32,000 nucleotides of DNA from Candidatus Scalindua sp. (GTDB taxonomy: Bacteria; Planctomycetota; Brocadiia; Brocadiales; Scalinduaceae), in assembly GCA_031316235.1 (NCBI GenBank), contig JALDRA010000001.1, forward strand, positions 3,600,001-3,632,000, written 5' to 3'. The stretch's first letter is position 1. Every line of letters begins with the position of its first letter. The position numbers and the translations under genes were made by a program. The notes under the pieces were generated by a model, which was not told the DNA's origin, searched no databases, and was given only the letters and a program-made list of their open reading frames with translations. Shown here piece after piece: positions 563 to 28,625 of this stretch.

Positions 563-674
563 TATACTCATCTCATAATGGTTTTCGGATAAAATCCGAG
601 ATAAAATTGAGCGAGTATACCTTCACCAAGATTTGGTTTCCAGAAAAACCGAAAACCAAATCGGTTTTAGTATA
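563..674 (+). repeat. Structured intergenic repeat, copy 1 (short 112-nt form)
   Basis: Sequence is TATACTCATCTCATAATGGTTTTCGGATAAAATCCGAG...AAACCAAATCGGTTTTAGTATA. It differs from copy 4 (16276-16387) at 6 of 112 positions by hand alignment and has TATACT/AGTATA termini. Confidence 0.9.
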
Positions 675-923
675 GTACTCCCACCTGAACCAGATAGTCG
701 GGCCAGACCTGGATAGATTCATCAGGGCGGCCGGGTACCTAGAATGGCGCTGAGCAACAACAGGGAAGTAGTTGCCCGCCTCGACTACCTGAAGTCCGGC
801 CCGGGGAAGGGGATGGTAGCTGTTTTGAAAGAGATGCACCTTTCTGCGTGCAGAAGCAGAGGCAGCCAGGTTGCGCTAAACTCGACCTGCATCATACCTG
901 CGTTCTTTGGATGTAAGTTACTT

Positions 924-956
924 CCGCCTTATAATGCGGGCGGCGTTTGTCTTTTG
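924..956 (+). terminator. Terminator-like GC stem-loop with a T-rich tail on the plus strand
   Basis: CCGCC (924-928) pairs with GGCGG (939-943) around a 10-nt loop and is followed by CGTTTGTCTTTTG. The T tract is on the plus strand only, although the flanking CDS (962-1762) is on the minus strand. Confidence 0.35.
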
Positions 957-961
957 AATTA

Positions 962-1762
962 TTAAATACTCTCTTTTCTCAAAATTTCCCCGATCTTCCG
1001 GTAAATGGCTTGTGCGGTATTCGGGGTTATCTGAGCATTTATGGTAATTGCCGGGAACATCCCGATGCCACGTTCTCTGGCATGTTGCCGGTCTTTGGCA
1101 ATCTGGGCATCAACATCGAATAAGTTGATAGATGCCTGTGTTTGTTTCTGAGTTTGACCATTTCTGGCAGCGAGTTGAATGAGTGTATCCCAATTCCAGG
1201 GGCCCTGATGGTTGATCAGGGTTTCTTGTATGATGCTGTATTTTCCATCCAACCGGGCAGACTCAACGAGTTTAAGTGCACGGAGAGCTTCCCGTGTCAA
1301 ACCCGGTGCTCTGAGAATAACCCGAAACTGATGAAGCTCTTTAGAGACCTTTTTGACCATTTGCCATATTTGCGGTAAATGTGGATCTGTATAGTCGGCA
1401 AAGACATCTATGATGATCGGACTATTCAGGTCCATGATAATCTCATGCGGTTTTTTTCCTGCTTCAAGGCTTTCCAGGACATAGGAAATCTCATTTTTCC
1501 CGGCACTGCATCCAAAACAGGCTGGTGAATTGAGACTTCCCGGTAAAAATCTTCCACACCGGCATGGGCAAGAACGCTCAGCCAGGATTTCATCTGCCAT
1601 TTTCATGATTTCTTGAAGATCATCTTCGACTGTTTCCGCTTCACACGCACGAAAACTAGAATATAATCCGAAAATTCCAGAAATAAGTATGGTAAAACAG
1701 ATAAAAGATAAAAACCTGCTGACAATTTCTCTCTCTTCTGCACAATTTTTTCTACTCAGCAT
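962..1762 (-). CDS. Membrane-anchored DsbA-like thioredoxin-fold protein lacking the CXXC motif
   Basis: This is a 266-aa ORF with an N-terminal TM helix (FLSFICFTILISGIFGLY) and a Cys-rich stretch (CPCRCG...CFGC). A DsbA-like pattern follows (IIIDVFADYTDPHLPQIW ... GMFPAITINAQ), but the usual CPxC position reads TDPHL. Confidence 0.6.
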   Translation of the reverse strand: MLSRKNCAEEREIVSRFLSFICFTILISGIFGLYSSFRACEAETVEDDLQEIMKMADEILAERSCPCRCGRFLPGSLNSPACFGCSAGKNEISYVLESLEAGKKPHEIIMDLNSPIIIDVFADYTDPHLPQIWQMVKKVSKELHQFRVILRAPGLTREALRALKLVESARLDGKYSIIQETLINHQGPWNWDTLIQLAARNGQTQKQTQASINLFDVDAQIAKDRQHARERGIGMFPAITINAQITPNTAQAIYRKIGEILRKESI

Positions 1763-1773
1763 CTTTTCATGAC

Positions 1774-2166
1774 CTAATAATGATGATAAATTGCAATATA
1801 AAGTTTTTTTACCCTGAACTCAGAGGTTTGGTAAACCTGAGCCTCAGGGTTTGCTCCTCTTCTCACATTCGTCCATAACGTTAATGTGAGGGCGGTACAT
1901 GGTAATACAGAAAGTATCATATCATATGATTGCATCCATTTAAAACCTATTTTGATTCTGTCAATCAACGATGTGCTGTAAGATGTCACCAAAGCCAATC
2001 CTACACCAACCAGCGCACTGCCTGCGATCAGACCTGAACTGAAGAGAATCCCATTTACGCGAGCTTTTTCAAGTGGTTCCTCTTTGAATTTTCTCTCTGT
2101 ATGGTCTCGAAGGAGACCTCCTATCATGATGGGTGTTGTGAGATAGAGAGGAGTTGGTAAATGATG
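1774..2166 (-). pseudogene. C-terminal remnant of an OPT-family oligopeptide transporter
   Basis: The 117-aa ORF (MIGGLLR...ILFSSGLIAGSALVGVGLAL) matches the conserved C-terminal block of OPT transporters (GGLIR ... SGLIAGE-L-G). The frame continues upstream of the ATG (LPTPLYLTTPI) to a stop at 2167-2169. Full OPT proteins are several hundred aa longer, and nothing upstream reads as OPT in one frame. Confidence 0.55.
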
Positions 2167-2327
2167 TCATGGAGAATTTCCAGGAGCTTGAAGCTGACGG
2201 TAAGAATATAGGGATCTACCGGGACAAACGAATTATTTGGCAAGAAGAGAGGACCGTTATCGTTTTTATCTCAGAGAGATTAAAGAGTGGACAGATAAGG
2301 GGAATATATCAATCACTGGGAAAGACA

Positions 2328-2351
2328 GAAAACCATTGTAAGATGAGTATA
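2328..2351 (-). repeat. Stub of the structured repeat (5' end only, 24 nt)
   Basis: The reverse complement reads TATACTCATCTTACAATGGTTTTC, against TATACTCATCTCATAATGGTTTTC at the 5' end of copy 1. It lies where the OPT remnant loses its reading frame. Confidence 0.5.
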
Positions 2352-2395
2352 GTATCCTCCTATAGATAAACGGTCAGACGAGTGCGGAGACAACA

Positions 2396-3355
2396 TCAAT
2401 CAGAAGTAGCTTCAATTAAGAAATCATAACAGTTGTCTCTCAATTCAGCATCAGCTCGTAGTTTCATTGCCTCCCGGGGATGGTGGTTGAGGTGGCCGCT
2501 GATACCATATATATCATTGAAACCCCACTCAATCTGCTTGCGAAGCGGCACCATCTGTTCCTGAATTACCTTGTATACGGGCCTCACATCAAACTTCGGA
2601 TTTTTTAAGAAATTAAGGAGAAGTTCCAGATTGCAGTTACCGGCGCCTCGGCCTATACCGTTAATAGTTGCATCTAGGAGGTTTACACCATCGATAATCG
2701 CCTGTTGAGTATTTGAAAAGGCTAGTTGCTGGTTGTTGTGAGCATGGAAACCCAGTTCCTTATCTGGGGCGTGATCTTTATACAGTTTCAGATAGCCCGT
2801 CACCTGCTCTGAATAAAAGGCCCCATAACTGTCAACCAGGTACAGGTAATCCACCTCTTTGGTTTCATTGATCTGTTCCAATGCTTCAATCAGTTCGGTT
2901 TCGATTGCGGCAGAAGAGGCCATAATGTTGATGGTGGTTTCATACCCAAGATCCTTCGATCGCTTTGCTAAATAGATCCCCTTATCGATATCGGGGACAT
3001 AACAGGCTATGCGGATCATCCCAACTACACTCTGTTCTGCGGGAAGAAGTGATTCAATATCTACTCTCCCGACATCAAACATTACTGCTAAAACGGGAGG
3101 ATTTTGGCATTCATGGGACTCAACCACCTGTCTGAGATCCTCCTCCACACAAAAATTCCATCTCCCATATTTTTCCCGTGTATATTCCTTACACTCACAG
3201 AGTTTTTTACCGATCTCCACGTAATCTACACCGGCATCACAGGTAGCGCGATATATAGATTTAACAAAATCCATGGTAAAGTGGTAATTATTGATCAGGC
3301 CTCCATCTCTAATGCTGCAATCTAAAACCTTAATCTGCTTTCTATACATCTCCAT
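2396..3355 (-). CDS. HMGL-like / pyruvate carboxyltransferase-domain aldolase (DRE-TIM metallolyase family)
   Basis: This 319-aa ORF has the motifs VLDCSIRDGG near the N-terminus and HAHNNQQLAFSNTQQAI, both typical of the HMGL-like domain. Confidence 0.8.
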   Translation of the reverse strand: MEMYRKQIKVLDCSIRDGGLINNYHFTMDFVKSIYRATCDAGVDYVEIGKKLCECKEYTREKYGRWNFCVEEDLRQVVESHECQNPPVLAVMFDVGRVDIESLLPAEQSVVGMIRIACYVPDIDKGIYLAKRSKDLGYETTINIMASSAAIETELIEALEQINETKEVDYLYLVDSYGAFYSEQVTGYLKLYKDHAPDKELGFHAHNNQQLAFSNTQQAIIDGVNLLDATINGIGRGAGNCNLELLLNFLKNPKFDVRPVYKVIQEQMVPLRKQIEWGFNDIYGISGHLNHHPREAMKLRADAELRDNCYDFLIEATSD

Positions 3356-3694
3356 AACTCCTGTAAAAACCAGCTGTCAACTGCATGAAATTCAAAAAAG
3401 TTATTTTAGCGTATACGGGTATGGAAAAACAAGCATTTTTCCGTCCTGATTGATGGTGAGGTGTTTAAAATGAGATGAAACTGCACCAGTTCCGGAAATT
3501 ACCACATCCGGCAACCGAATTTGTTCTATCTGATTATATAATTGAATATTCAACCTAAACTGATATAATTCCGAAAATTGTATTTCAACAAGAAGAAATT
3601 ACCCTTTTTCAGCGTGCACTATGCGTTGATGTTACTGTTGCGTGTTTTTCTTCGTTATGAAAATGCATGAGCAATAGAGGGGAACTCATAGGTA

Positions 3695-4981
3695 ATGGAT
3701 ACAGGGAAAAATAAATATATAAAGGCACCGCTTGGCATGAAGGATCTCTTTCCAACCGAGAGAGTACTATGGAACGAGATAGAAAATGTTGCCAGGGAAG
3801 AGTTTGAATTAAGTGGATATTACGAGATCAGGACCCCGGTTTTTGAAGACACACGTCTTTTTGTCAGAAGTATTGGGGAGACCTCGGACATTGTGGAAAA
3901 AGAGATGTACACGTTTGGGGATACAGATGATTCCATGATTACGCTCCGCCCGGAGAACACCGCACCCGTTATGCGTGCATATCTCGAATATGAGCTTTAT
4001 AAGTCAAAAAAATTCCAGAAATTTTATTATATAGGGCCTATGTTTAGAAAGGAAAGGCCCCAGGCTGGAAGGTTGAGGCAATTTCATCAGATGGGGGTTG
4101 AGGCGGTAGGTTCATATGATCCATTACTTGATGTTGAGACAATAAAGGTTGCAACCAGGGTTTATGACCGGCTTGGACTGACTGGATACAAGGTTAAGGT
4201 TAATTCAATCGGATGTGAAAAGTGCAGGCCTGGTTTCAGGGATCTTTTGAAAGAAGAACTCCGAAGATACAAAGAGGATTTGTGTGAACTCTGTCAGACA
4301 CGTATTGAGAGGAATGTCTTCAGGGTACTTGACTGCAAAAAGGAAAAATGCAGAGAGATCTGTACTAATGTGTCAAGCATCGTAAACCATATCTGTAATG
4401 ACTGCCTGGATCATTTTACTTCGGTAAAAAACACTCTTGAGGATATACGTCTTGACTACACGGTTGATCAAAATCTTGTTCGGGGATTAGATTATTATAC
4501 AAAGACAGTTTACGAAATTACCCATCCCGCTATGGGTGCCAGAGACACTATTTGTGCCGGTGGACGCTATGATAACCTGATATCTGATATAGGCGGCCCC
4601 CCAATTGGTGCTGTTGGTTTTGCTGCGGGGATAGAGGCCTCGTTGATTGCTCTTATCAAGATGAGAAATAAGGAATATCAAACAGAGAACCCACCAGTTA
4701 CACTGGACGCTTACCTTGTCTCCATTGGAAGTGAGACAAGGAGTTATTGCTTCCGGTTACTGAATACTCTCAGGCAGGCCGGCGTATCTGTTGATATGGA
4801 CTATGAAAGCAGAAGTCCAAAGGCACAGATGAGAATGGCCAATAAGACAGGAGCAAAGTTTACTATTGTTATCGGATCTGAAGAGTTGGCAAAAGGCGTA
4901 ATCAAGCTGAAGCATATGCAGACAGGTGAGGAAAATTTTGCCGGGGATCCGGGAGAAACGATACAGATTATTCGTAAATGA
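3695..4981 (+). CDS. hisS: Histidine--tRNA ligase
   Basis: This 428-aa ORF has the class II motifs TLRPENTAPVMR, MFRKERPQAGRLRQFHQ and AGGRYDNL. It also has a Cys-containing insertion (LCELC...LDCKKEKC) and a C-terminal anticodon-binding domain pattern. Confidence 0.95.
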   Translation: MDTGKNKYIKAPLGMKDLFPTERVLWNEIENVAREEFELSGYYEIRTPVFEDTRLFVRSIGETSDIVEKEMYTFGDTDDSMITLRPENTAPVMRAYLEYELYKSKKFQKFYYIGPMFRKERPQAGRLRQFHQMGVEAVGSYDPLLDVETIKVATRVYDRLGLTGYKVKVNSIGCEKCRPGFRDLLKEELRRYKEDLCELCQTRIERNVFRVLDCKKEKCREICTNVSSIVNHICNDCLDHFTSVKNTLEDIRLDYTVDQNLVRGLDYYTKTVYEITHPAMGARDTICAGGRYDNLISDIGGPPIGAVGFAAGIEASLIALIKMRNKEYQTENPPVTLDAYLVSIGSETRSYCFRLLNTLRQAGVSVDMDYESRSPKAQMRMANKTGAKFTIVIGSEELAKGVIKLKHMQTGEENFAGDPGETIQIIRK

Positions 4982-5078
4982 ACATTGTTCATTGTGCTCG
5001 GCACGTCATCCTGAGAGAAAATATTTGACATGGTTATCAAGTGTTTACGATGTCTTTAAAGAGAGAAGGAATAGATGA

Positions 5079-6851
5079 ATGACTGAATTAAAAAGAACCC
5101 ATACCTGCGGGCAGTTAAGGAAGAGTGATGCCGGAAACGAGGTTGTGCTTTCAGGGTGGGTTGATACGAGAAGGGATCACGGGGGAGTAATTTTTATTGA
5201 TTTGCGCGATAGATACGGCAAGTCGCAGATTGTATTTAATCCAGAGCATAATCATGAGGCTCATGATTATGCTTCTGATCTCAGGTCGGAATATGTTATC
5301 GCTGTAAAGGGGAAGGTTTCTGAAAGGCCTGATGGCATGACAAATCCTGATCTGGATACCGGTGAGATTGAAGTATTTGTTGATAAATTAGTACTGTTGA
5401 ATACCAGCGAGACAACGCCTTTTGAAATTACGGCCGATACAGAGGTCTCAACTGAGCTGAGGCTCAAGTATAGATATCTTGATCTGAGACGTCCGGTTAT
5501 GCAGAAGAACATGGTGTTTCGTCACAAAGTGTGTCAAGTTGCCAGACGCTACTTTGACCGTAATGAGTTTGTTGATATTGAAACACCGTTTTTGACTAAA
5601 AGCACTCCCGAAGGAGCAAGAGACTACCTCGTCCCCAGCAGAATAAACAGGGGACAATTCTATGCCCTGCCACAATCTCCACAGCTCTTCAAGCAGCTAT
5701 TGATGGTGTCAGGGATGGACCGGTACTATCAGATAGTAAAGTGTTTTCGAGACGAAGACCTGCGTGCGCAACGTCAGCCGGAATTTACGCAGCTTGACCT
5801 TGAGATGTCATTTGTTAATGAGGAGGATATCATGACTATCATCGAGGGGTTGGTGGCAGAGATTTTCAGGGAGGTGGTGGGGAAGGAGCTTCATGCCCCC
5901 TTCAAACGGATCTCTTACCGAGACGCTATGGATCGTTATGGTTGTGATGCCCCTGATTTGAGGTTTGACATGATAATACATGAGATAACTGATATCGGAG
6001 AAAAATCTGATTTCAAGGTGTTTCAGTCTGTAGCGAAATCTGGCGGCCAGGTAAGGGGAATTAATGCCTCAGGCTGTGGAAAATTTTCAAGAAAAGAGAT
6101 AGACGGACTTACCTCTTTTGTCAATCAATTCGGGGCAAAGGGTCTCGCGTGGTTTAAGGTTGATGAAAATGGATTAACTTCCCAGATTGCAAAGTTCTTT
6201 TCTCCCGAGCTTCAGTCTGAAATACAAGAACGTTTTGATGCTGTACCGGGTGATTTACTTCTCTTTGTGGCTGACAAGCAAAGTGTTGTCTCGCAATCGC
6301 TTTCTCAACTCCGGCTCAACATAGGAAAACAGAAAGGATTGATGAAAAGTGATGAGTTCCATTTTTCCTGGGTTGTTGATTTTCCACTCCTTGAATATAA
6401 TGAAGAGGCAGGCCGGTACGATTCACTTCATCACCCCTTTACCTCACCGCATCATGAAGATCTTAAGCTCCTGGAAGAGAAACCATTGGATGTGAGGGCG
6501 AGGGCATACGATCTTGTCTTAAATGGTATTGAACTGGGAGGTGGGAGCATAAGAATTCACAGATCCGATCTCCAGAAGAGTATCTTCAGCCTGCTCAATA
6601 TTGATGAAGCTACGGCACAAAAAAGATTTGGGTTCCTGCTTGAGGCATTGAAATATGGTGCACCACCCCATGGTGGTATTGCTTTGGGTTTGGACCGAAT
6701 GGTTACGCTGCTCTTAAGGCTTGATGATATCAGAGAAGTGATTGCATTCCCTAAGACACAGAAAGCTACGTGCCTCATGGCCGATGCACCTTCAGAAGTA
6801 GATGACAATCAACTCAAAGAGCTTGGATTGTCACTTCGAAAACCCGATTAA
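5079..6851 (+). CDS. aspS: Aspartate--tRNA ligase
   Basis: This 590-aa ORF has the motifs QSPQLFKQLLM, FRDEDLRAQRQPEFTQLD, GGGSIRIH and GLDRMV. An RBS (GAGAGAAGGA) lies upstream. Confidence 0.95.
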   Translation: MTELKRTHTCGQLRKSDAGNEVVLSGWVDTRRDHGGVIFIDLRDRYGKSQIVFNPEHNHEAHDYASDLRSEYVIAVKGKVSERPDGMTNPDLDTGEIEVFVDKLVLLNTSETTPFEITADTEVSTELRLKYRYLDLRRPVMQKNMVFRHKVCQVARRYFDRNEFVDIETPFLTKSTPEGARDYLVPSRINRGQFYALPQSPQLFKQLLMVSGMDRYYQIVKCFRDEDLRAQRQPEFTQLDLEMSFVNEEDIMTIIEGLVAEIFREVVGKELHAPFKRISYRDAMDRYGCDAPDLRFDMIIHEITDIGEKSDFKVFQSVAKSGGQVRGINASGCGKFSRKEIDGLTSFVNQFGAKGLAWFKVDENGLTSQIAKFFSPELQSEIQERFDAVPGDLLLFVADKQSVVSQSLSQLRLNIGKQKGLMKSDEFHFSWVVDFPLLEYNEEAGRYDSLHHPFTSPHHEDLKLLEEKPLDVRARAYDLVLNGIELGGGSIRIHRSDLQKSIFSLLNIDEATAQKRFGFLLEALKYGAPPHGGIALGLDRMVTLLLRLDDIREVIAFPKTQKATCLMADAPSEVDDNQLKELGLSLRKPD

Positions 6852-6982
6852 GCTGTTGTTGAACCAAAACTACCCATCCACGGCGTTGCTGCAATAATTC
6901 TCCAATCCTCACGTACTTGAGTACGCTCCGGTTGAAGAATTATTACGCGCCTTGTACCTTGGCAGTTTTGGTTCAACAACTG
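6852..6982. repeat. Long imperfect palindrome (about 130-nt hairpin) immediately after aspS
   Basis: The outer arms GTTGTTGAACCAAAACTaCC (6855-6874) and GGcAGTTTTGGTTCAACAAC (6961-6980) pair with one mismatch. An inner pairing joins GCAATAATTCT with AGAATTATTaC, and the apex is CGTACTtgAGTACG. Confidence 0.8.
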
Positions 6983-7177
6983 GGTATCTAAATTGTGCTA
7001 CTCGTTTGGCCTACCTGACTCATCATTCAGACAGGGAAACGAGCGGTAAAAACATCAAAAATAGTCGTAAATCGTAATTCGTAAATCCTTTTCCGTCTCA
7101 TCCTGCTTGGGTTTCCATAAAATACACGGAGTATCTCTCGTCTGCACTTCTTAACTTCGGATAGGTGGTGGTGAAAA

Positions 7178-9256
7178 GTGACTGCATCAGATTTAGATAA
7201 ATCAATCCAGTATATCAGGGGTGTTGGACCAAAACGGTACAAGACATTGACAAGATTAGGTATCTACACACCAAGAGACCTCCTCTATTACTTCCCCCGC
7301 ACTTACCAGGATCGCTCTCAAATTGAAAAGATTTCTGAATTGGGAGAGGGAGATACTGCAATGGTAAAGGGGAAGGTAACCCGCATGAAATCTTCCAATA
7401 CCAGAGGCTGGAAGAGTATCTTTGAGATTTCGGTCACTGATGATACTGGTACCCTTATGGTGAAGTGGTTCAATCAACCTTACCTGAAGGATAAGTTTGA
7501 AGTGGATGATCTGGTATTACTCTATGGCAGGGTCTCTTGCTATAAAAAAAAACTGCAGATAGCAAACCCTGATTATGAGGTTATTACCGATAATGATTGT
7601 CTTCGCGAAAGTATGGTAATAGTACCGGTGTATGCACTAACCGAGGATATGAGACAATCCATCTTTCGTAAGCTTATGGCGACGGTTGCTTCTGAATTAC
7701 TGTGTTTTGTAGAGGAGTTCTTTCCGGAAAATATCATGCAAAAACGGAAACTCATGCCTGCTGTTCCTGCACTAAAACGTATCCATTTTCCTGATTCTTT
7801 CGATGATTTGAATGAGGCAAAGAGAAGACTGAAATATGAAGAATTTTTTCTGTTTGAATCGGCTGTGGCACTTCAGAAACTCAGGATAAAAGAGGCAGAG
7901 GGGTATCAATTCTCGATAGGCCCGGAAATCGAAAGTCAAATCTTTAAACTCTTTCCCTTTACCCTTACCAGGAGCCAGGAGATGGTCATCAGGGACTTGC
8001 AGAGAGATATGTGCAGCCTGAAACCAATGAACCGGTTGCTCCAGGGAGATGTCGGATCGGGAAAGACGGTTATAGCGGTATATGCATTGCTAGCTGCAAT
8101 TGCCAATGGGGTTCAGTCTGCATTCATGGCGCCAACAGAACTCCTTGCTGAACAGCACTATCGTACACTTAACCATTATCTGGCAAATACAAATATCCGG
8201 GTCCTCCTCCTGAAAGGTGGATTAAAGACCAGAGAGAGGAGAGATGTTCTTGAACAGATACAAAATGGTGAAGTGGATCTCGTTGTTGGTACACATGCTC
8301 TCATTCAGAAAGATGTCCGATTTAAAAGGTTAGGTTTAATAGTTATCGATGAGCAGCACAAGTTTGGAGTGATGCAGCGTGCGAGACTACGGCACAAGGG
8401 ACACCATCCGCACCCCGACGTCCTTGTAATGACGGCTACTCCTATACCCAGATCGCTTTCCCTGACAGTGTTCGGAGATCTCGATGTCTCCACTATTGAT
8501 GAATTACCGCCCGGTCGGATACCGGTGAAGACATTCGGGGTAACAGCAAGCAAGCAGAACGATGCGTATGGGTTTATTCGCAGGGAGATAGAGAAGGGGC
8601 GGCAGGCGTATGTCGTGTACCCTTTGGTTGAGGAGTCTGAGAAACTCGACCTCAAGGCTGCGACGGAAGAGGCTGAAATACTTAAGGAGAAAGTATTTCC
8701 CGGTTTACGGGTGGGGCTTCTCCATGGGCAGTTGAAATCAGATATGAAGGAGTTCATCATGTCTGATTTCATACATCACCGGTTTGATATTCTGGTGTCA
8801 ACGATTGTGATTGAAGTTGGAATAGATGTTCCGAATGCGACCATAATGGCGATTGAACATGCTGAACGCTTTGGACTCGCACAGCTGCACCAGTTGAGGG
8901 GGAGGGTAGGGCGTAGTTCTCACCAATCCTATTGCTTGCTATTCGGAAGACCGAAGAGCGAGGGTGCCCGTCGGAGACTCAAGACAATGATAGCGACAAA
9001 CGATGGTTTCAGGATCGCGGAGGAAGACTTAAGGATCAGGGGTCCTGGCGAATTCTTTGGCACAAGACAGCACGGTATGCCTGAATTCAGGATAGGTGAC
9101 ATCATTCATGATCATGACCTGTTAACGTTAGCGAGGGATGATGCATTCGAATTTTTGAATGAAACAGGGAATTTAGCAACATCTGAAAATCGTTTATTAA
9201 TGAAAAAGATTAGGGAAAATTTCAAAGACAGACTCGATCTGATACATACTGGTTGA
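7178..9256 (+). CDS. recG: ATP-dependent DNA helicase RecG
   Basis: This 692-aa ORF starts with GTG. It has an N-terminal IRGVGPKRYKTLTRLGIYTPRDLLYYFPRTYQDR pattern and the helicase motifs GDVGSGKT, DEQHKFG, TATPIPR and QLHQLRGRVGR. Confidence 0.95.
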   Translation: MTASDLDKSIQYIRGVGPKRYKTLTRLGIYTPRDLLYYFPRTYQDRSQIEKISELGEGDTAMVKGKVTRMKSSNTRGWKSIFEISVTDDTGTLMVKWFNQPYLKDKFEVDDLVLLYGRVSCYKKKLQIANPDYEVITDNDCLRESMVIVPVYALTEDMRQSIFRKLMATVASELLCFVEEFFPENIMQKRKLMPAVPALKRIHFPDSFDDLNEAKRRLKYEEFFLFESAVALQKLRIKEAEGYQFSIGPEIESQIFKLFPFTLTRSQEMVIRDLQRDMCSLKPMNRLLQGDVGSGKTVIAVYALLAAIANGVQSAFMAPTELLAEQHYRTLNHYLANTNIRVLLLKGGLKTRERRDVLEQIQNGEVDLVVGTHALIQKDVRFKRLGLIVIDEQHKFGVMQRARLRHKGHHPHPDVLVMTATPIPRSLSLTVFGDLDVSTIDELPPGRIPVKTFGVTASKQNDAYGFIRREIEKGRQAYVVYPLVEESEKLDLKAATEEAEILKEKVFPGLRVGLLHGQLKSDMKEFIMSDFIHHRFDILVSTIVIEVGIDVPNATIMAIEHAERFGLAQLHQLRGRVGRSSHQSYCLLFGRPKSEGARRRLKTMIATNDGFRIAEEDLRIRGPGEFFGTRQHGMPEFRIGDIIHDHDLLTLARDDAFEFLNETGNLATSENRLLMKKIRENFKDRLDLIHTG

Positions 9257-10663: not shown

Positions 10664-11083
10664 GTAAGCTGAACCCTGGTCTCCAGCCATATCCACCTCA
10701 ATCAAGAAGGTTTTCGCAGACCCACACCCCCGATTTCACTGACTCTATTATACAGCATTCTCATAAATTAAAACCAGGCTTTTTCATTTTTCCCCAGGTT
10801 TCATGCTGAAGTGGGGTATGATCGGCGTTCTCTAAAAAGAACATGCAACAAACAGTGGGTTTTCGTTCACGCACTAGTTAAGGAATCTACCACTGACCCA
10901 AAAGGCTATGAAATGATTATGGGAGACTCGGGAATGCTGTTTTTTTTGCATGAACAGGGAAAGAGAGGTCGGCAACTGATGATTGATGAGTCAAAGAGAG
11001 ATGCATACCTGCATAGTTCATAACCACTTGACGATCATTCAGAACAAGAGGTTATGGAAGGACTATACGCTGAAAATGAAAAA

Positions 11084-11578: not shown

Positions 11579-11717
11579 TGTACTCATCTCATACTGGATT
11601 TCGGATAAAATTTGAGAAAAAACGGAGCGGGTAAAGTCCTCGGCGTTTTTTGTCCGGGGATACCTGCATCCAGGCGTTGGTTTTTAGAAAAATCAACACC
11701 AAGTCGGTTTTAGTACA
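11579..11717 (+). repeat. Structured intergenic repeat, copy 2 (long 139-nt form, most diverged)
   Basis: Sequence is TGTACTCATCTCATACTGGATTTCGGATAAAATTTGAG...GTCCTCGGCGTTTTTTGTCCGGGGATACC...GTCGGTTTTAGTACA. The termini are TGTACT/AGTACA rather than TATACT/AGTATA. Confidence 0.85.
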
Positions 11718-12372: not shown

Positions 12373-12418
12373 TATACTTATCTTATAATGAGTTTTAGGT
12401 TTCGTGCTGATTGGTATA
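12373..12418 (+). repeat. Internally deleted, degenerate mini-copy of the structured repeat
   Basis: Sequence is TATACTTATCTTATAATGAGTTTTAGGTTTCGTGCTGATTGGTATA. The first 18 nt match the copy 1 5' end at 16 of 18 positions. GTTTTAG and GGTATA resemble the 3' end GGTTTTAGTATA. Confidence 0.45.
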
Positions 12419-13462: not shown

Positions 13463-13601
13463 TATACTCATCTCATACTGGATTTCGGATAAAATCCGAG
13501 ATAAATTTGAGCGAGTTAAGTCCTCGGCTCTTTTTGTCCGGGGATACCTTCACCAAGATCTGGTTTCCGGTAAAACCTAAAACCAGATCGGTTTTAGTAT
13601 A
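13463..13601 (+). repeat. Structured intergenic repeat, copy 3 (long 139-nt form)
   Basis: It differs from copy 5 (reverse complement) at about 10 of 139 positions by hand alignment. It carries the 27-nt insertion TAAGTCCTCGGCTCTTTTTGTCCGGGG relative to the short form. Confidence 0.9.
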
Positions 13602-16275: not shown

Positions 16276-16387
16276 TATACTCATCTCATACTGGATTTCG
16301 GATAAAATCCGAGATAAAATTGAGCGAGTATACCTTCACCAGGATTTGGTTTCCGGTAAAACCGAAAACCAAATCGGTTTAAGTATA
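16276..16387 (+). repeat. Structured intergenic repeat, copy 4 (short 112-nt form)
   Basis: Full sequence: TATACTCATCTCATACTGGATTTCGGATAAAATCCGAGATAAAATTGAGCGAGTATACCTTCACCAGGATTTGGTTTCCGGTAAAACCGAAAACCAAATCGGTTTAAGTATA. Confidence 0.9.
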
Positions 16388-21509: not shown

Positions 21510-21547
21510 TCACGGCAATTGATCGGGCCTATTCTAAAAACTGAACA

Positions 21548-22846: not shown

Positions 22847-22857
22847 AATATTTTCAG

Positions 22858-22885: not shown

Positions 22886-22998
22886 AGGTACTGAACAACG
22901 CGGATCTGAGAGGAAAGAGTATTCCGAGACCTTTTACTGCCAGTTGTTTAGAGTATTTTCAGAACGTATTTTTCAGTAAACAATTAACCAGCTAAAAA

Positions 22999-24387
22999 AT
23001 GTTTGAATCTATTACAGGCAGTCTTGATACTATATTCAATAAACTTCGCGGCAAGGGGAGATTAACAGAAGAGAATATAAAAGAAGGATTGCGTGAAGTA
23101 AGGGTTGCGCTTCTTGAAGCAGATACAAATTATATAGTCGTCAGGGATTTTATCCAAAAGGTTACTGATCGAGCCGTAGGAGATGATGTTATACGGAGTG
23201 TGACTCCGGGACAACAAATAGTAAAAATAGTTCATGATGAGATGATAAACCTGATGGGCTCAGGAGATTCTGCTATACCGTATGTAGACGGTGGCATTAC
23301 GATCTTAATGCTTGTGGGGTTACAGGGAAGTGGTAAGACTACGACATCCGGAAAACTTGCAAACTACATTATGTCAAAAGGCAGAAGACCACTTCTTGTG
23401 GCCGCCGACGTGCAGAGGCCTGCAGCAATTGAACAGCTACAGGTTCTTGGTAAACAGCTCAGTATCCCGGTTTTTTCAGAGAAAGGTATGACTCCCGTTA
23501 AGATATGCAGCGGGTCTGTGAAATTTGCAAAGGCAAACAACCATGACGTGATTATCCTTGACACTGCAGGCCGGTTGCATATAGATGAAGAGTTAATGCT
23601 GGAATTAAACGATATTAACAACAAGATTAAACCGACTCAGATTTATTTTGTATGTGATGCTATGACAGGTCAGGATGCGGTCAACAGCGCGAAGGAATTT
23701 AATTTGCAATTGGGTTTAGATGGTGTGATATTAACAAAGTTGGATGGAGATACAAGAGGTGGTGCGGCATTATCTATCAGAGCTGTTACCGGCAAACCCA
23801 TAAAGTTTGTCGGTGTAGGAGAAAAGCTTGATAAACTGGAAGAATTTCATCCTGACCGCATGACATCAAGGATTCTGGGAATGGGTGATGTTGTATCATT
23901 AGTTGAAAAAGCTCAGAAGGTAATTGATGAGGAGGATGCTGCAAAATTAGGAAAAAAGATAAAGGATGGGTCCTTAACTCTTGATGATTTTCTTAAACAA
24001 TTACAACAAATCAGGCGGATGGGTCCTTTGAAAGATATCATGGGCATGATTCCCGGATTAGGGAAAAAAATGAAGGGTATGCAGGTTGATGAAAAGCAGA
24101 TGCAGAATGTTGAAGCTATTATTCATTCTATGACACGGTATGAACGAATGCAGCCTGATATTATTGAAGGTAATAGGAGAAATAGGATTGCGGCTGGTAG
24201 CGGAACAAATGTGGTTGATGTAAGCCAACTGCTGAAACAGTTTAAACAGATGAAAAAAATGTTTAAACATTTTGGCGGAGATGGTGGGAATATGATGTCT
24301 CCCGATGGAATGTCACCTCATGATGCGATGAAAATGAACAGAAAGCTAAGGAGCAAACGGAAGAAAGTGAAAAGGAAAAAAAGATAA
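22999..24387 (+). CDS. ffh: Signal recognition particle protein Ffh
   Basis: This 462-aa ORF has the NG-domain motifs GLQGSGKTTT, DTAGRL and TKLDGDTRGG. It has a Met-rich M domain and a basic C-terminal tail. Confidence 0.95.
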   Translation: MFESITGSLDTIFNKLRGKGRLTEENIKEGLREVRVALLEADTNYIVVRDFIQKVTDRAVGDDVIRSVTPGQQIVKIVHDEMINLMGSGDSAIPYVDGGITILMLVGLQGSGKTTTSGKLANYIMSKGRRPLLVAADVQRPAAIEQLQVLGKQLSIPVFSEKGMTPVKICSGSVKFAKANNHDVIILDTAGRLHIDEELMLELNDINNKIKPTQIYFVCDAMTGQDAVNSAKEFNLQLGLDGVILTKLDGDTRGGAALSIRAVTGKPIKFVGVGEKLDKLEEFHPDRMTSRILGMGDVVSLVEKAQKVIDEEDAAKLGKKIKDGSLTLDDFLKQLQQIRRMGPLKDIMGMIPGLGKKMKGMQVDEKQMQNVEAIIHSMTRYERMQPDIIEGNRRNRIAAGSGTNVVDVSQLLKQFKQMKKMFKHFGGDGGNMMSPDGMSPHDAMKMNRKLRSKRKKVKRKKR

Positions 24388-24456
24388 ATGTGATACAGAA
24401 GAAGCATGTGTGATTCTTGAAAAAGTAATTTATTAATCAAAGATAGGAGATTTTGT

Positions 24457-24711
24457 ATGGCAGTAAAGATAAGATTGAAGAAAATGGGAAGAAAGGGTAG
24501 ACCATTTTATAGGATTTGTGCTTTTGATGCTCGTGAAGAGCGTGATGGGAGGAGCATCGAGCAGCTTGGGACGTACGATCCGATGGAAAAGGAAGAGGCA
24601 AATAAAGTATCGCTGAAAAAGGAAAGAGTTGAATATTGGATCAGTGTGGGTGCAATACCTTCTGAAACAGTGGCCAGTATCCTTAAAAAAAATGGCATTG
24701 CATTCAGGTAA
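24457..24711 (+). CDS. rpsP: 30S ribosomal protein S16
   Basis: This 84-aa ORF begins MAVKIRLKKMGRKGRPFYRI... An RBS (AGGAG) lies upstream. Confidence 0.95.
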   Translation: MAVKIRLKKMGRKGRPFYRICAFDAREERDGRSIEQLGTYDPMEKEEANKVSLKKERVEYWISVGAIPSETVASILKKNGIAFR

Positions 24712-24796
24712 TAACTTGCCCATTCTGGTAGTTTACTTGATCTGTTTCGCTTAAGTGTAGAGTGTGAAGTTTCAGGACAAAGCTTGAAAATTCTTA

Positions 24797-24935
24797 TATA
24801 CTGAAATCGATTTGGTTTTCGGTTTTACCGGAAACCAAATCCTGGTGAAGGTATCCCCGGACAAAAAGCGCCGAGGACTTTACTCGCTTAATTTTATCTC
24901 GGATTTTATCCGAAATCCAGTATGAGATGAGTATA
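24797..24935 (-). repeat. Structured intergenic repeat, copy 5 (long 139-nt form, inverted)
   Basis: The reverse complement reads TATACTCATCTCATACTGGATTTCGGATAAAATCCGAGATAAAATTAAGCGAGTAAAGTCCTCGGCGCTTTTTGTCCGGGGATACCTTCACCAGGATTTGGTTTCCGGTAAAACCGAAAACCAAATCGATTTCAGTATA. Confidence 0.9.
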
Positions 24936-24964
24936 CTAAAAAGTTGTTGGAGCCTCGAAGAGCA

Positions 24965-25645
24965 ATGAGAATTGATATTTTGACTCTGTTTCCTGGTATG
25001 TTTCATGCTGTTTTTGGTGAAAGCATTTTAAAAATTGCACAAGATAAGAAGCTCGTAAGGCTTTTTCTGCATAACATAAGAGATTATTCGCGTGATAAGC
25101 ATAAGTGTGTAGATGATAAACCATACGGCGGAGGTGGAGGTATGGTAATAAAGCCGGAACCATTGTTCCATGCTGTAGAAACAGTAGAAAAACAAGCTGC
25201 TCAGGCTGCAAAGAAAATCTTATTGACACCTCAGGGGAAAACGTTTGACCAGCAGATTGCGATTGATCTGGCACAAGAAAGCCGATTAATGTTCATTTGC
25301 GGTCACTATGAAGGGTTTGATGAGAGGATCAGGTTGGGAATTGAACTCATGGAGATTTCAATTGGTGATTATGTATTGACCGGTGGAGAAATCCCTGCGA
25401 TGGTCGTGACGGATGCAGTTGTGAGATTAATTCCGGGTGTCCTGGGTGGAAAAAGATCATTGCAATATGAGTCATTTATGAATAAAATGCTGGATTATCC
25501 TCAGTATACAAGGCCCGAAGTATTCAGGGGAATGAAAGTGCCTGAAATACTTAGATCAGGTAACCACAAGTCGATTGAAGAGTGGAGAAAAGATGAATCA
25601 GCAAAAAAAACAGAGGAACGAAGGCCTGATTTATTGGCAAAATAA
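24965..25645 (+). CDS. trmD: tRNA (guanine37-N1)-methyltransferase
   Basis: MRIDILTLFPGMF... and GHYEGFDERI, IGDYVLTGGEIPAMV are TrmD motifs. I prefer ATG 24965 over the ORF-track TTG at 24944. Confidence 0.93.
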   Translation: MRIDILTLFPGMFHAVFGESILKIAQDKKLVRLFLHNIRDYSRDKHKCVDDKPYGGGGGMVIKPEPLFHAVETVEKQAAQAAKKILLTPQGKTFDQQIAIDLAQESRLMFICGHYEGFDERIRLGIELMEISIGDYVLTGGEIPAMVVTDAVVRLIPGVLGGKRSLQYESFMNKMLDYPQYTRPEVFRGMKVPEILRSGNHKSIEEWRKDESAKKTEERRPDLLAK

Positions 25646-25687
25646 GGTATCGCATCAGAAAAATTTTATATATTTAGGAGTTGCTTT

Positions 25688-26044
25688 ATGAACATGATAG
25701 ACGTATTAGAGAAGGAGAACATGAAGAAAGATGTTCCACAGTTTCGGGTTGGAGATCAGGTTGACGTTCATGTTAAGATTGTAGAGGGCGATAAAGAGCG
25801 AATACAGATTTTTAATGGCATAGTTATTGCGAGAAAAGGTGGCGGCAACAGGGAGACATTTACGGTAAGACGAATAGTCCAGGGAGAAGGTGTAGAGAGG
25901 GTTTTTCCCATACATTCACCGCATGTAGTAGATGTGGTCGTGAAAAAGTCTTATAAGGTGAGACGTGCGAAACTGTATTATCTGAGAGAAATAAGCGGTA
26001 AGGCAGCTAGGCTTAAGGAACTTCCCAGAAAAAAGAAAAATTAG
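25688..26044 (+). CDS. rplS: 50S ribosomal protein L19
   Basis: This 118-aa ORF reads ...PQFRVGDQVDVHVKIVEGDKERIQIFNGIVIARKGGG..ETFTVRR... An RBS (AGGAG) lies upstream. Confidence 0.95.
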   Translation: MNMIDVLEKENMKKDVPQFRVGDQVDVHVKIVEGDKERIQIFNGIVIARKGGGNRETFTVRRIVQGEGVERVFPIHSPHVVDVVVKKSYKVRRAKLYYLREISGKAARLKELPRKKKN

Positions 26045-26064
26045 GAAGAATACGGCTAAACAGA

Positions 26065-26177
26065 TATACTAAAACCGATTTGGTTTTCGGCTTTACCGGA
26101 AACCAAATCTTGGTTGCAGTTATACTCGCTCAATTTTGTTTCGGATTTTATCCGAAATCCAGTATGAGGTGAGTATA
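26065..26177 (-). repeat. Structured intergenic repeat, copy 6 (short form, 113 nt, inverted)
   Basis: The reverse complement reads TATACTCACCTCATACTGGATTTCGGATAAAATCCGAAACAAAATTGAGCGAGTATAACTGCAACCAAGATTTGGTTTCCGGTAAAGCCGAAAACCAAATCGGTTTTAGTATA. Confidence 0.9.
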
Positions 26178-26326
26178 AATATTTTTCTTTTGCATATCCA
26201 TTGTAAAAGGATTTCCTGGATTTCAGGGTATGGGTCTCCGTGAAATTATGATTTTCGATTGAGAAAAACAGAGACCTGGTAATACTCTGGTGGGGTTTTT
26301 CCCGGATAAAAAACACCGGGGATCTT

Positions 26327-26821
26327 GTGATTGAGAAAAAGGTAAAGACGATGTTAATTCAGGTTTCTGAAAACCGAAAATCAATCTGCAGGGAGTATAT
26401 TGAGATGTTTTGGCAGGAAAGTATGCTTGGTGATAAGATCGGGCCAAAGGAGCTTTGGATTAAGGGAGAAGGTGTAGCCAGGAAATTTCTAAAGAAACGA
26501 GGCTACAAGATACTAAAAAGAAACTATGTAAGCAAGACGGGCGAGATCGATATTGTAGCATATAATAAGGGGATTATTGCATTTGTAGAAGTGAAGGCCC
26601 GCCTGTCGGAAAGGTATGGCTCACCTGTACTTGCTATAACAAAGGGAAAGAAAAGGAAAATTGTTAAGACTGCCTTGTGCTACCTGCTCGAAAACAAGAT
26701 CGAAAATATCGATTACCGTTTTGATGTAGTTTCAATTTTATTTACAAAAGAAGCGTATAAGCCGATAATTGAGTTTTTTGAGGGCGCATTTACGTCTGAT
26801 GGTCTTTTTGATCATGTTTAA
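26327..26821 (+). CDS. yraN: YraN-family (UPF0102) endonuclease-like protein
   Basis: GEGVARKFLKKRGYKILKRNYVSKTGEIDIVAYNKGIIAFVEVKAR matches the YraN core. The listed start is the maximal GTG ORF. The true start may be the ATG at 26405 or 26423, because family members are usually about 120-130 aa. Confidence 0.8.
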   Translation: MIEKKVKTMLIQVSENRKSICREYIEMFWQESMLGDKIGPKELWIKGEGVARKFLKKRGYKILKRNYVSKTGEIDIVAYNKGIIAFVEVKARLSERYGSPVLAITKGKKRKIVKTALCYLLENKIENIDYRFDVVSILFTKEAYKPIIEFFEGAFTSDGLFDHV

Positions 26822-26889
26822 GAGTGGTTCGTGCAAACTGTTGTATGTATCTCTTTTTTCTTGTATTGAGTAATAAAACGTAGAGCCTT

Positions 26890-26982
26890 ATGAATAAGAA
26901 AAACAAATGGATACTGATCAGTGTAGGTTTTGTTGTGCTGGTAATTCTGCTTTATGTAGCAAAGTTTTTAGAAAAACCATAA
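26890..26982 (+). CDS. Possible 30-aa single-TM small protein
   Basis: The translation is MNKKNKWILISVGFVVLVILLYVAKFLEKP, a basic N-terminus followed by one hydrophobic helix. There is no clear RBS. Confidence 0.2.
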   Translation: MNKKNKWILISVGFVVLVILLYVAKFLEKP

Positions 26983-27565
26983 GATCCAATTGCAGTGTTT
27001 CTGATTAATCGGGAGATTGGGTAGAGAAATAGCAGGTATACCAACAGAGGTTTATCTATAAATCCGACCAGGAGCCTGATTATGTATTTTCTATCTAAAA
27101 TCTGATGATGCAGTAACCATTATCCCCAACGCAAATTCTTCGAAAGAGTGTACCTGTTCGTTCTTCTGAAAAGGCTATTCAGGTTTTACTCGGTTTTCAT
27201 TTTCAACCACCACCCTCAGGTAGTACCGCTTGATGGCTCTCTCAGAGGAAAATACGGTCGTTTGAGAAAGAACGTATGCAGCCTTTATGACCTGCAGAAG
27301 CTTCTTTGCAATGAAATTATCGTTATCTTGTTTTCTTTGACACAACGAAGATGTGGTAAACCATCCTACCAGGTGCTGATTTCCCCGCCCGGACGAATCC
27401 GTTCGGAAGGGAGTGAAAAAAAGCAGGAAATTACCGGTTTATAGTCTAATCCTTTACTTTCTACAAAAAATGAGGTCAGTTGATAGTTTTAATTTCACTT
27501 TGTATCTGTGATCAAAACACCTTTATTACTTGCCGGTAATCTGAAACGTTGGCTAAGTCTGAAAA

Positions 27566-27591
27566 TATACTCATCTCATCAACTGAAGTAT
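27566..27591 (+). repeat. Possible minimal remnant of the structured repeat (both termini, interior lost)
   Basis: Sequence is TATACTCATCTCATcaactgAAGTATga. The first 14 nt are identical to the repeat 5' end, and AAGTAT resembles the copy 4 3' end (TAAGTATA). It overlaps the ATG of the methyltransferase gene. Confidence 0.35.
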
Positions 27592-28620: not shown

Positions 28621-28625
28621 GATAA

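What the first reader, a model, noticed from the sequence alone, without database searches (positions are those of the whole stretch)
563..27591. Dense family of 112/139-nt structured intergenic repeats that I cannot match to a named element
There are six full copies: 563-674 (+), 11579-11717 (+), 13463-13601 (+), 16276-16387 (+), 24797-24935 (-) and 26065-26177 (-). At least three stubs are also present in the 32 kb. Shared architecture: a 6-nt terminal inverted repeat (TATACT...AGTATA); a 5' subterminal hairpin (ATTTCGGAT-AAA-ATCCGAGAT); and a 3' subterminal hairpin (GATTTGGTTT-C-CGGT-AAA-ACCG-A-AAACCAAATC). Both hairpins have AAA triloops. In the short form the 5' end TATACTC can also pair with the internal GAGTATA. 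Copies differ by only about 5-7% by hand alignment. All are intergenic, they occur in both orientations relative to neighbouring genes, and no consistent flanking target duplication is visible. This resembles ERIC, Correia or REP elements, or the subterminal-hairpin ends of IS200/IS605-type PATEs. No transposase is present in the window.
Basis: seen in the sequence. Interest (0 to 1): 0.7.

Follow-up and report, generated by a model that had tools for sequence, protein, structure and literature searches.

The report
Small mobile DNA repeats in Scalindua
The repeats are real: they are a previously undescribed family of tiny non-coding jumping-DNA elements (MITEs) that litter the genomes of marine anammox bacteria (Candidatus Scalindua), insert at TA sites, and resemble the Correia elements of Neisseria, so this is a new example of a familiar kind of element.

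Summary
All six copies are at the stated coordinates, and both hairpins and the short and long forms are confirmed. The family has at least 187 further copies in four Candidatus Scalindua/Scalinduaceae genomes and was found in no other organism.

Copies nested inside another repeat family show empty sites reading ..TTG-TA-CCT.. and filled sites reading ..TTG-TA-[element]-TA-CCT... Of 118 copies with distinct flanks, 107 have TA on both sides.

- Copies are about 89% intergenic and show no strand bias relative to genes.
- There is no base-pair covariation beyond plain sequence conservation.
- Copies differ in position between Scalindua species.
- Size classes of 57, 112, 139, 165 and 197 nt come from optional GC-rich hairpin modules.

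The element is therefore a modular MITE of the TA-duplicating (IS630/Tc1-mariner) type. Its closest architectural analogue is the Correia element, but it shares no sequence with Correia or ERIC.

No partner transposase was found in about 1 Mb of Scalindua DNA or in the metagenome and viral scans. REP/RAYT and IS200/IS605 readings are not supported. Verdict: a new member of a known kind, of modest interest.

The parts
563..674 (+). MITE copy 1, short form (112 nt). TA at 563-564, core 565-672, TA at 673-674. It lies between two minus-strand genes, antisense to them.
11579..11717 (+). MITE copy 2, long form (139 nt) and the most decayed copy. Its flanks read TG...CA instead of TA...TA. It lies between the tRNA-Arg/His pair and a parB-like gene.
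13463..13601 (+). MITE copy 3, long form. The 27-nt M hairpin module is at 13517-13543. The copy starts 26 nt after the stop of the parB-like gene, in sense orientation.
16276..16387 (+). MITE copy 4, short form. 5' TIR 16278-16303, 5' hairpin 16295-16315, 3' hairpin 16343-16375, 3' TIR 16360-16385. It is absent from the orthologous spacer of Scalindua RBC_AMX3.
24797..24935 (-). MITE copy 5, long form. It sits inside the rpsP-trmD-rplS gene row, antisense, and ends 8 nt before the trmD ORF.
26065..26177 (-). MITE copy 6, short form (ATAACTGCAA middle variant). It starts 20 nt after the rplS stop, antisense.
2328..2351 (-). Solo 5' TIR stub (TATACTCATCTTACAATGGTTTTCTG), intergenic.
27566..27580 (+). 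15-nt 5'-terminal stub (TATACTCATCTCATC), just upstream of the gene that starts at 27590.
12373..12418 (+). 46-nt mini element of a sibling family with the same TIR type (TATACTTATCTTATAATGAGTTTTAGG...TGATTGGTATA).
26194..26398 (.). Copy of sibling MITE family C (TIR TATACYCAT..TGRTTTTCGG), directly next to copy 6.

Best explanation
The repeats are copies of a non-autonomous DNA transposon (a MITE) specific to Candidatus Scalindua and its relatives.

**Anatomy.**
- The true element is TACTCATC...TTTTAGTA. It is 108 nt in the short form and 135 nt in the long form.
- It is bounded by imperfect 26-nt terminal inverted repeats and flanked by a duplicated TA target.

**Inferred mechanism.**
- A DDE transposase supplied in trans, most likely of the IS630/Tc1-mariner type, binds the inner TIR block TGGTTTTCGG.
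- It cuts at the TACT ends and pastes the element into a TA dinucleotide, mostly in AT-rich intergenic DNA.

**The hairpins.**
- Each terminal hairpin is the inner TIR block paired with an adjacent inverted copy of itself.
- Optional GC-rich hairpin modules sit in the middle of the element or in the hairpin loops.
- Presence or absence of these modules gives the size classes 112, 139, 165 and 197 nt.
- A 57-nt mini form arises by deletion between the two direct copies of the block.

**Shown versus inferred.**
- Shown: the copies, the TIRs, the TA duplication, presence/absence between species, the intergenic bias, and the lack of strand bias and covariation.
- Inferred: the class of transposase, present-day activity, and any effect of the stable stem-loops on the mRNAs that carry them.
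For: **Copy number and host range.**
- nhmmer found 193 hits, 126 of them full length, in the window plus 118 loci.
- Every hit is in Scalindua/Scalinduaceae MAGs or in the window.

**Target duplication.**
- Nested insertions in repeat family B give empty sites CGCGCCTTG-TA-CCTGGGCAG and filled sites CGCGCCTTG-TA-[element]-TA-CCTGGGCAG.
- A second nested site reads CTG-TA-[element]-TA-AAAATT, where empty copies read CTG-CA-AAAATT.
- A head-to-head pair of copies shares a single TA.
- 107 of 118 copies with distinct flanks have TA on both sides, and there is no longer duplication.

**Terminal inverted repeats.**
- Core positions 1-4, 6, 10, 15-24 and 26 match between the two ends, read from the consensus.
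- Sibling families C and E carry the same TIR type.

**Mobility.**
- Window copy 16276 is missing from the syntenic RBC_AMX3 spacer. That spacer is 58 nt against 168 nt in the window, a difference of 110 = 108 + TA.
- RBC_AMX3 has a copy upstream of ipdC where the window has none.

**Behaviour expected of selfish DNA.**
- 100 of 112 placeable copies are intergenic, against a crude coding fraction of 0.76.
- In co-directional gene pairs, 35 copies are sense and 27 antisense.
- Hairpin pairs are 93.3% paired against 93.1% in shuffles, so there is no covariation.

**Recent activity.** Copies are 92-94% identical between genomes, the same as within genomes, although host genes are only about 78% identical.

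**Modules.** The optional modules occur only inside this element.
Against: **No partner found.**
- There are no TIR pairs 0.7-3 kb apart.
- There is no IS630/Tc1-type C-terminal motif in the six-frame translations.
- tblastn with an IS630 transposase that I wrote from memory gave no hit.
- The metagenome scan returned only more MITEs, and the viral scan returned nothing.
- MAGs often lose multi-copy IS elements, and only about 1 Mb was sampled, so this absence is weak evidence.

**Limits of the TA evidence.**
- The clean empty-versus-filled evidence comes from two nested sites.
- Sequence alone cannot separate a TA duplication from 'insertion 3' of a TA by an element that itself ends in TA'. 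The symmetry of the TIRs favours duplication.

**A hint of constraint.** One copy shared by SCAELEC01 and RBC_AMX3 is conserved together with about 35 nt (5' side) and about 25 nt (3' side) of flank, while the surroundings have diverged. This could point to local selective constraint.
Confidence: 0.8

Rival explanations
1. The copies are a family of selected structured RNA or cis-regulatory modules, such as sRNA genes, mRNA-stabilising or RNase III-processing hairpins, or terminators. Under this reading, selection on function rather than transposition explains their conservation and their placement next to genes.
For: - The folds are very stable, -35 to -47 kcal/mol with z-scores from -4.3 to -8.3.
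- Copies sit 0-30 nt from stop codons and inside the rpsP-trmD-rplS row, so they must be transcribed.
- Identity between species is 92-94%, far above that of host genes.
- A divergent subfamily keeps a 5' hairpin using a different sequence.
- One orthologous copy is conserved together with its flanks.
Against: - There is no strand bias relative to genes: 35 sense against 27 antisense, plus 21 copies between divergent genes and 17 between convergent genes.
- There is no covariation above shuffles, and substitutions mostly break pairs.
- No Rfam family matches.
- The simple consensus scans place no terminator inside the copies. The only promoter-like matches that touch them use the terminal TATACT as a -10 hexamer.
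- TIRs, the TA duplication and presence/absence between species are transposon features that this reading does not explain.
Confidence: 0.07
2. The copies are REP/REPIN-type palindromes mobilised by a RAYT, or hairpin-ended derivatives (PATEs) of an IS200/IS605 element. Both would be moved as single-stranded DNA by a Y1 transposase that recognises subterminal hairpins.
For: - There are conspicuous hairpins near both ends.
- No DDE partner was found.
Against: - The ends form a 26-nt inverted repeat, and the hairpins are built from that repeat.
- A 2-bp TA duplication flanks the copies.
- By established knowledge, IS200/IS605 elements and REPs have no TIRs and make no target duplication.
- No Y1 transposase domain occurs in any window ORF tested.
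Confidence: 0.04
3. The copies are fossil remains of an extinct transposon. They would be inert repeats that no longer move in the window's organism and persist only because deletion is slow.
For: - No partner transposase was found.
- There are many truncated stubs, solo TIRs and decayed copies such as 11579.
- Other mobile elements, an IS110 and a group II intron, have landed inside copies.
Against: - Some copy pairs within a genome are 100% identical.
- Identity between species equals identity within a genome, although genes are about 78% identical. This requires insertion well after the species separated.
- Insertion sites differ between the window and RBC_AMX3.
Confidence: 0.09

Closest known systems
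Correia repeat-enclosed elements (CREE/NEMIS) of Neisseria
   Same: - Both are small, about 100-155 nt, with a short and a long form that differ by an internal segment.
- Both have 26-bp terminal inverted repeats that begin right after a TA.
- Both insert at a TA target, occasionally CA, and duplicate it.
- Both have more than 100 mostly intergenic copies.
- Neither has a known transposase.
- Both fold into long stem-loops when transcribed.

The Correia features are taken from PMC2649163, PMC5039591 and PMC10969869.
   Different: - There is no sequence similarity. The Correia 26-mer has no match in the window even with 3 mismatches.
- The host is an anammox planctomycete, not Neisseria.
- The two ends here match at only 17 of 26 positions.
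- Each end carries its own local hairpin.
- The size classes come from several optional GC-rich hairpin modules, not from one 50-bp deletion.
- Promoters, IHF binding and RNase III cleavage are shown for Correia. They are untested here.
ERIC/IRU elements of Enterobacteriaceae and their Photorhabdus/Xenorhabdus relatives
   Same: - Both are about 127-nt intergenic imperfect palindromes.
- Both have TIRs and a 5'-TA-3' at both ends (PMC3184786).
- Both have longer variants with inserts at fixed internal sites.
- Both are co-transcribed with neighbouring genes.
   Different: - There is no sequence similarity. The ERIC2 primer sequence is absent from the window.
- The host phylum differs.
- ERIC is a single long hairpin, whereas this element has a domain structure of two or three hairpins.
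MITEs derived from IS630/Tc1-mariner elements (Stowaway-like)
   Same: - A 2-bp TA target duplication.
- TIRs with a conserved inner protein-binding block.
- A preference for AT-rich non-coding DNA.

These family traits are stated from established knowledge of the family. IS630-family IS are reported in other anammox genomes (PMC7814187).
   Different: No IS630-type gene with matching ends was found, so derivation from such an IS is an inference from the TA duplication alone.
BOX elements of Streptococcus pneumoniae
   Same: A modular build in which a variable number of internal hairpin modules gives discrete size classes (PMC3049150 describes the pneumococcal repeats).
   Different: By my own knowledge, BOX has no TIR or TA duplication and its mobility is unclear. 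Its modules are tandem boxB units rather than inserts placed in hairpin loops.
REP/REPIN-RAYT and IS200/IS605 PATEs
   Same: Abundant intergenic hairpin-forming repeats.
   Different: Those elements have no terminal inverted repeats and no target duplication, and they depend on a Y1 transposase. This element has both TIRs and a TA duplication.

Membership tests
MITE (generic prokaryotic) | Small (under about 500 bp) and non-coding | tested here: met
   Copies are 57-197 nt. The only ORFs that overlap them are short and unsupported.
MITE (generic prokaryotic) | Terminal inverted repeats | tested here: met
   An imperfect 26-nt TIR with 17 of 26 positions matching, including a 10-nt exact inner block TGGTTTTCGG. 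This is read from the consensus of 45 copies.
MITE (generic prokaryotic) | Target-site duplication | tested here: met
   TA is shown by empty-versus-filled nested sites. 107 of 118 copies are flanked by TA on both sides.
MITE (generic prokaryotic) | Many dispersed copies, with presence/absence between related genomes | tested here: met
   193 hits in four Scalindua/Scalinduaceae genomes plus the window. Copy 16276 is absent at the RBC_AMX3 orthologous site.
MITE (generic prokaryotic) | A cognate autonomous element with the same ends | tested here: inconclusive
   None was found in about 1 Mb of Scalindua loci, 13 metagenome loci or the viral contigs.
IS630/Tc1-mariner-mobilised element | Duplication of a TA dinucleotide on insertion | tested here: met
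IS630/Tc1-mariner-mobilised element | A DDE (DD[E/D]) transposase of this superfamily that recognises the TIRs | tested here: inconclusive
   No such gene was found in the sampled DNA. Binding and transposition cannot be tested with these tools.
Correia (CREE) | The 26-bp Correia repeat sequence TATAGTGGATTAA... at the ends | tested here: not met
   0 matches in the window with up to 3 mismatches. The resemblance is in architecture only.
ERIC | The conserved ERIC core sequence | tested here: not met
   The ERIC2 primer sequence, recalled from memory, gave 0 matches with up to 3 mismatches.
REP/RAYT or IS200/IS605 PATE | No TIR and no target duplication, with hairpin ends recognised by a Y1 transposase | tested here: not met
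   A TIR and a TA duplication are both present. No Y1 transposase domain was found in the window ORFs.
Known structured RNA family (Rfam) | A match to a curated covariance model | tested here: not met
   Only two tRNAs reach gathering score in the window. The permissive scan of copy 13463 gave chance-level hits only.

The most novel reading that the evidence does not exclude
This family and its siblings (families C and E with the same inner TIR block, and family B with TA flanks) may form an orphan MITE superfamily. Its mobilising enzyme might not be an ordinary multi-copy IS. It could be a single-copy, domesticated or as yet unclassified transposase in Scalindua. The copies hold 92-94% identity across species whose genes are only about 78% identical, and they sit inside operons such as rpsP-trmD-rplS. 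They might therefore be retained because their stem-loops act on host mRNAs through processing, stability or termination, as Correia elements do in Neisseria.
Probability: 0.15. Interest if true: 0.6.

Novelty: new member of a known kind. Interest (0 to 1): 0.35.

Why it matters
- **Anammox biology.** Anammox bacteria are uncultured in pure form and are known almost only from metagenome assemblies. A MITE present about every 5 kb in this window breaks assemblies. The only public contig carrying this window's RplS stops inside the elements on both sides.
- **Practical uses.** The family gives a lineage-specific marker for Scalindua. Insertion polymorphisms could serve for strain typing.
- **Genome dynamics.** Copies act as landing pads for an IS110-family element and a group II intron.
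- **Gene expression.** Copies inside operons are candidate Correia-like regulators of expression.
- **Taxonomic reach.** The family adds the Planctomycetota to the phyla with Correia/ERIC-type MITEs. A 2024 review of prokaryotic MITEs mentions neither planctomycetes nor anammox bacteria (PMC10969869).
- **Limits.** The kind of element is well known. Its significance is mainly descriptive unless a new transposase or a regulatory role emerges.

Tried and rejected
1. **Non-Scalindua hits of the genome scan.** Six hits fell in MAGs labelled Saccharibacteria, Ignavibacteria, Melioribacter, Desulfobacteraceae and 'bacterium'. All lie in a coding gene at a conserved ..SYWFSDKI.. motif, which I recognise as HtpX-like from memory. 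They lack the rest of the element, so they are coincidences and not horizontal spread.
2. **Partner search.**
   - Loose TIR scan for inverted pairs 0.7-3 kb apart.
   - Long partial nhmmer pairs. These turned out to be an IS110 inserted into a copy (L051, L081) and unrelated genes (L042).
   - All-against-all repeats of 500 nt or more. These gave only IS110, group II intron RT and nucleotidyltransferase duplicates.
   - Six-frame motif search for the SPDLNPIE-type signature.
   - tblastn with an IS630 transposase sequence recalled from memory, so of uncertain accuracy.
   - Metagenome scan restricted to TIRs not followed by known MITE sequence. It returned 13 loci, all MITE variants.
   - Viral contig scan, 0 hits.
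3. **Covariation.** No signal on 45 short copies. The M-module stem varies mainly in loop length.
4. **Consensus scans.** No terminator-like site lies inside the copies. The only promoter-like matches that touch them use the terminal TATACT as a -10 hexamer.
5. **Databases.** Rfam at gathering and permissive thresholds gave nothing. The plasmid collection gave no match.
6. **Strain-level empty sites.** The look-up of encoding contigs with RplS returned one 1.2-kb contig identical to the window. Comparing the metagenome loci with each other showed no polymorphism.
7. **L092 nested insertion.** The junctions could not be aligned cleanly, so it was not used as evidence.

Full report
**Observation**

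The six copies are at the stated coordinates. The repeat finder recovers them as direct and inverted families, they align over their full length, and an nhmmer profile scores them at E 1e-31 to 1e-46. The 5' hairpin motif occurs 7 times in the window against 0.02 expected, and the 3' hairpin motif 5 times against 0.00.

The long form equals the short form plus a 27-nt hairpin module, AAAGTCCTCGGCGCTTTTTGTCCGGGG, placed after ..GAGCGAGT. Predicted folds reproduce both hairpins and the TATACTC/GAGTATA closing stem. Z-scores run from -4.9 to -8.3 and both strands fold.

Rfam reports only tRNA-His and tRNA-Arg in the window and nothing meaningful for a copy at permissive thresholds. No window ORF has a transposase domain.

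**Host and abundance**

A 24-nt pattern from the 5' end was scanned over one genome for each of 185,579 species.
- Every hit carrying the whole element is in Candidatus Scalindua SCAELEC01, Scalindua RBC_AMX3, a Scalinduaceae MAG or Scalindua OFTM1.
- Six hits in other phyla lie in a coding gene at a conserved SYWFSDKI motif and are coincidences.

The window itself comes from a different Scalindua-like genome.
- It is syntenic with RBC_AMX3 locus L051, with 62-87% amino-acid identity and 78% nucleotide identity at ipdC.
- It is identical to a contig from run SRR28338161.

nhmmer found 193 hits, of which 126 are full length.

**True ends and target duplication**

Five copies, in L005, L009 and three in L116, lie inside another roughly 150-nt repeat that I call family B. 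Dozens of uninterrupted family B copies exist.
- Empty copies read CGCGCCTTG-TA-CCTGGGCAG.
- Filled copies read CGCGCCTTG-TA-[TACTAAAACC...GAGATGAGTG]-TA-CCTGGGCAG.

A second nested insertion, in L117, sits at another family B position. It reads CTG-TA-[element]-TA-AAAATT where empty copies read CTG-CA-AAAATT. A head-to-head pair in L001 shares one TA. Among 118 copies with distinct flanks, 107 have TA on both sides and no longer duplication exists.

The 5' end can be aligned with the reverse complement of the 3' end, using the consensus:
- 5' end: TACTCATCTCATAATGGTTTTCGGAT
- 3' end, reverse complement: TACTAAAACCGATTTGGTTTTCGGTT

This is a 26-nt imperfect TIR with an exact inner block TGGTTTTCGG.

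Each 'subterminal hairpin' is this block paired with a nearby inverted copy of itself. The left arm of the 3' hairpin is a third, direct copy of the block. Deletion between the direct copies explains the 57-nt mini forms in L001 and L044. A divergent subfamily found in metagenomes keeps the same arrangement with a different partner sequence, GGTTTTCGG-CAATAAT-CCGAAAAC.

**Behaviour**

*Mobility.* Window copy 16276 is absent from the orthologous spacer of RBC_AMX3. That spacer is 58 nt against 168 nt in the window, a difference of 110 = 108 + 2. Conversely, RBC_AMX3 has a copy upstream of ipdC where the window has none.

*Location.* 100 of 112 placeable copies are intergenic, against a crude coding fraction of 0.76. 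Copies often lie within 0-30 nt of a stop codon.

*Strand.* In co-directional gene pairs, 35 copies are sense and 27 antisense.

*Covariation.* In 45 short copies with 95% mean column identity, 93.3% of hairpin cells are paired against 93.1% in shuffles. Substitutions in the inner 3' stem mostly break pairs. The one double change, T3>C with A55>G, belongs to a single lineage.

*Age.* Copies are 92-94% identical between genomes and 92-95% within genomes, although host genes are about 78% identical. Most copies were therefore inserted after the species diverged, from a conserved source.

**Modularity**

The size classes 112, 131-143, 163-173 and 189-197 nt arise from optional modules:
- M, placed after GAGCGAGT.
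- N, CCCGCCTGAAYGACATGTCGGGCAGG, inside ATAACTG^CAA.
- GC-rich hairpins inside the loops of the 5' and 3' hairpins.

These modules occur essentially only inside this element. Solo 5' TIR stubs of about 30 nt are common. The window holds stubs at 2328-2351 and 27566-27580, a 46-nt mini element of a sibling family at 12373-12418, and a family C copy at 26194-26398.

**Mechanism**

The best explanation is a MITE moved in trans by cut-and-paste into TA.
- By established knowledge of prokaryotic IS families, a 2-bp TA duplication is the signature of IS630/Tc1-mariner transposases.
- IS630-family IS are reported in other anammox genomes (PMC7814187).
- No partner was found despite several searches. 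The transposase class is therefore inferred, not shown.
- MAGs commonly lack multi-copy IS, so the absence is weak evidence.

Effects on RNA are plausible because copies lie inside transcription units such as rpsP-[24797]-trmD-rplS-[26065]. They are untested, and the lack of strand bias and covariation argues against RNA function as the reason the family exists.

**Comparison with known elements**

The closest analogue is the Correia element of Neisseria (PMC2649163; PMC5039591; PMC10969869). Its features are:
- 26-bp inverted repeats.
- A TA target, sometimes CA, that is duplicated.
- Short forms of 104-108 bp and long forms of 153-157 bp.
- More than 100 copies.
- No known transposase.

ERIC-type elements also have TIRs and flanking TA (PMC3184786). 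Neither shares sequence with this element, so this is an analogue and not a member of either family. REP/RAYT and IS200/IS605 PATE readings fail on the TIR and the duplication.

No paper in the searched library links Scalindua with MITEs. A 2024 MITE review mentions neither planctomycetes nor anammox bacteria.

**Verdict**

It is wrong on the absence of a target duplication, on TIR length, and on the PATE and REP options. This is a new family of a well-known kind of element. Interest is modest (0.35), with some upside if the mobilising enzyme or an RNA-level role proves unusual.

Noticed in passing
window 6858-6986 (also 29850-29971 and 10849-10878): A second, unrelated repeat family, which I call family B. 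It is about 150 nt with TIR TAGTGTTTGAACGAAAAC...GTTTTCGTTCACGCACTA and TA at both ends. It has 145 hits in 49 Scalindua loci. One clear copy sits between aspS and recG, and there are two weaker matches. It is probably another TA-duplicating MITE.
   Followed up: partly
window 26194-26398; L007 4156-4337; L028 1247-1427 and 2295-2476; L038 6545-6726: Sibling family C, about 182 nt, has near-perfect TIRs TATACCCATCACAAATTGGTTTTCGG that share the inner block of the focal family. This suggests one transposase serves several MITE families. The window copy abuts focal copy 26065-26177.
   Followed up: partly
L120, L121, L124, L125, L127, L129, L132 (JGI metagenome contigs); window 12373-12418: Another sibling, family E (TATACCCATATCAAAATGGTTTTAGG...TTTCGTGACTGGTATA), carries GC-rich hairpin modules. 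A 46-nt mini version lies upstream of the parB-like gene in the window.
   Followed up: partly
L051 4513-6206 and L081 about 3246-4938: A frameshifted IS110-family element (Pfam DEDD_Tnp_IS110 plus Transposase_20) is inserted into the focal MITE at model positions 68-71. The two RBC_AMX3 loci share 99.5% identity over 1805 nt, but the 3' MITE halves differ. The MITE therefore seems to be the IS110 target, as REP is for IS621.
   Followed up: partly
L074 about 5455-7295: A group II intron is inserted in the M hairpin module of a MITE copy, starting with GTGCG right after ..AAAGTCCTCGG. It matches Rfam RF02005 at 134 bits and has an RVT_1 ORF.
   Followed up: partly
L005 7587, L009 6937, L116 1160/1578/3440: A focal MITE nested in family B has been amplified together with family B as a composite. 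This lineage carries paired changes, 5' TACTC>CACTC and internal GAGTA>GAGTG, that keep the closing stem intact.
   Followed up: partly
L017 4380-4730 versus L087 6709-7059: SCAELEC01 and RBC_AMX3 share a MITE copy at an orthologous site. About 35 nt of flank on the 5' side and about 25 nt on the 3' side are identical while sequence further out has diverged. The two copies differ only in the middle variant (ATACCTTCA versus ATAACTGCAA). This hints at gene conversion between copies or at local constraint.
   Followed up: partly
L032, L049, L062, L068, L085, L115: The 24-nt search pattern also matches a coding sequence for the conserved motif ..SYWFSDKI.. in unrelated phyla. I take this to be HtpX-like from memory. 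It is a trap for pattern-based repeat searches.
   Followed up: yes
window 24457-26044: rpsP is followed directly by a MITE and then trmD and rplS. No rimM-sized ORF lies between rpsP and trmD, where it sits in many bacteria. I did not check whether rimM is elsewhere.
   Followed up: no
window 28369-28662 and 28629-29597: A 97-aa ORF matching only the N-terminal part of GDP_Man_Dehyd overlaps the start of a complete epimerase/dehydratase gene. It may be a gene fragment or a frameshift.
   Followed up: no
L119 (Logan contig SRR28338161_172943) = window 24910-26088: The only public contig encoding this exact RplS is 1179 nt and ends inside the MITE on both sides. The repeats therefore fragment short-read assemblies of this organism.
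   Followed up: yes
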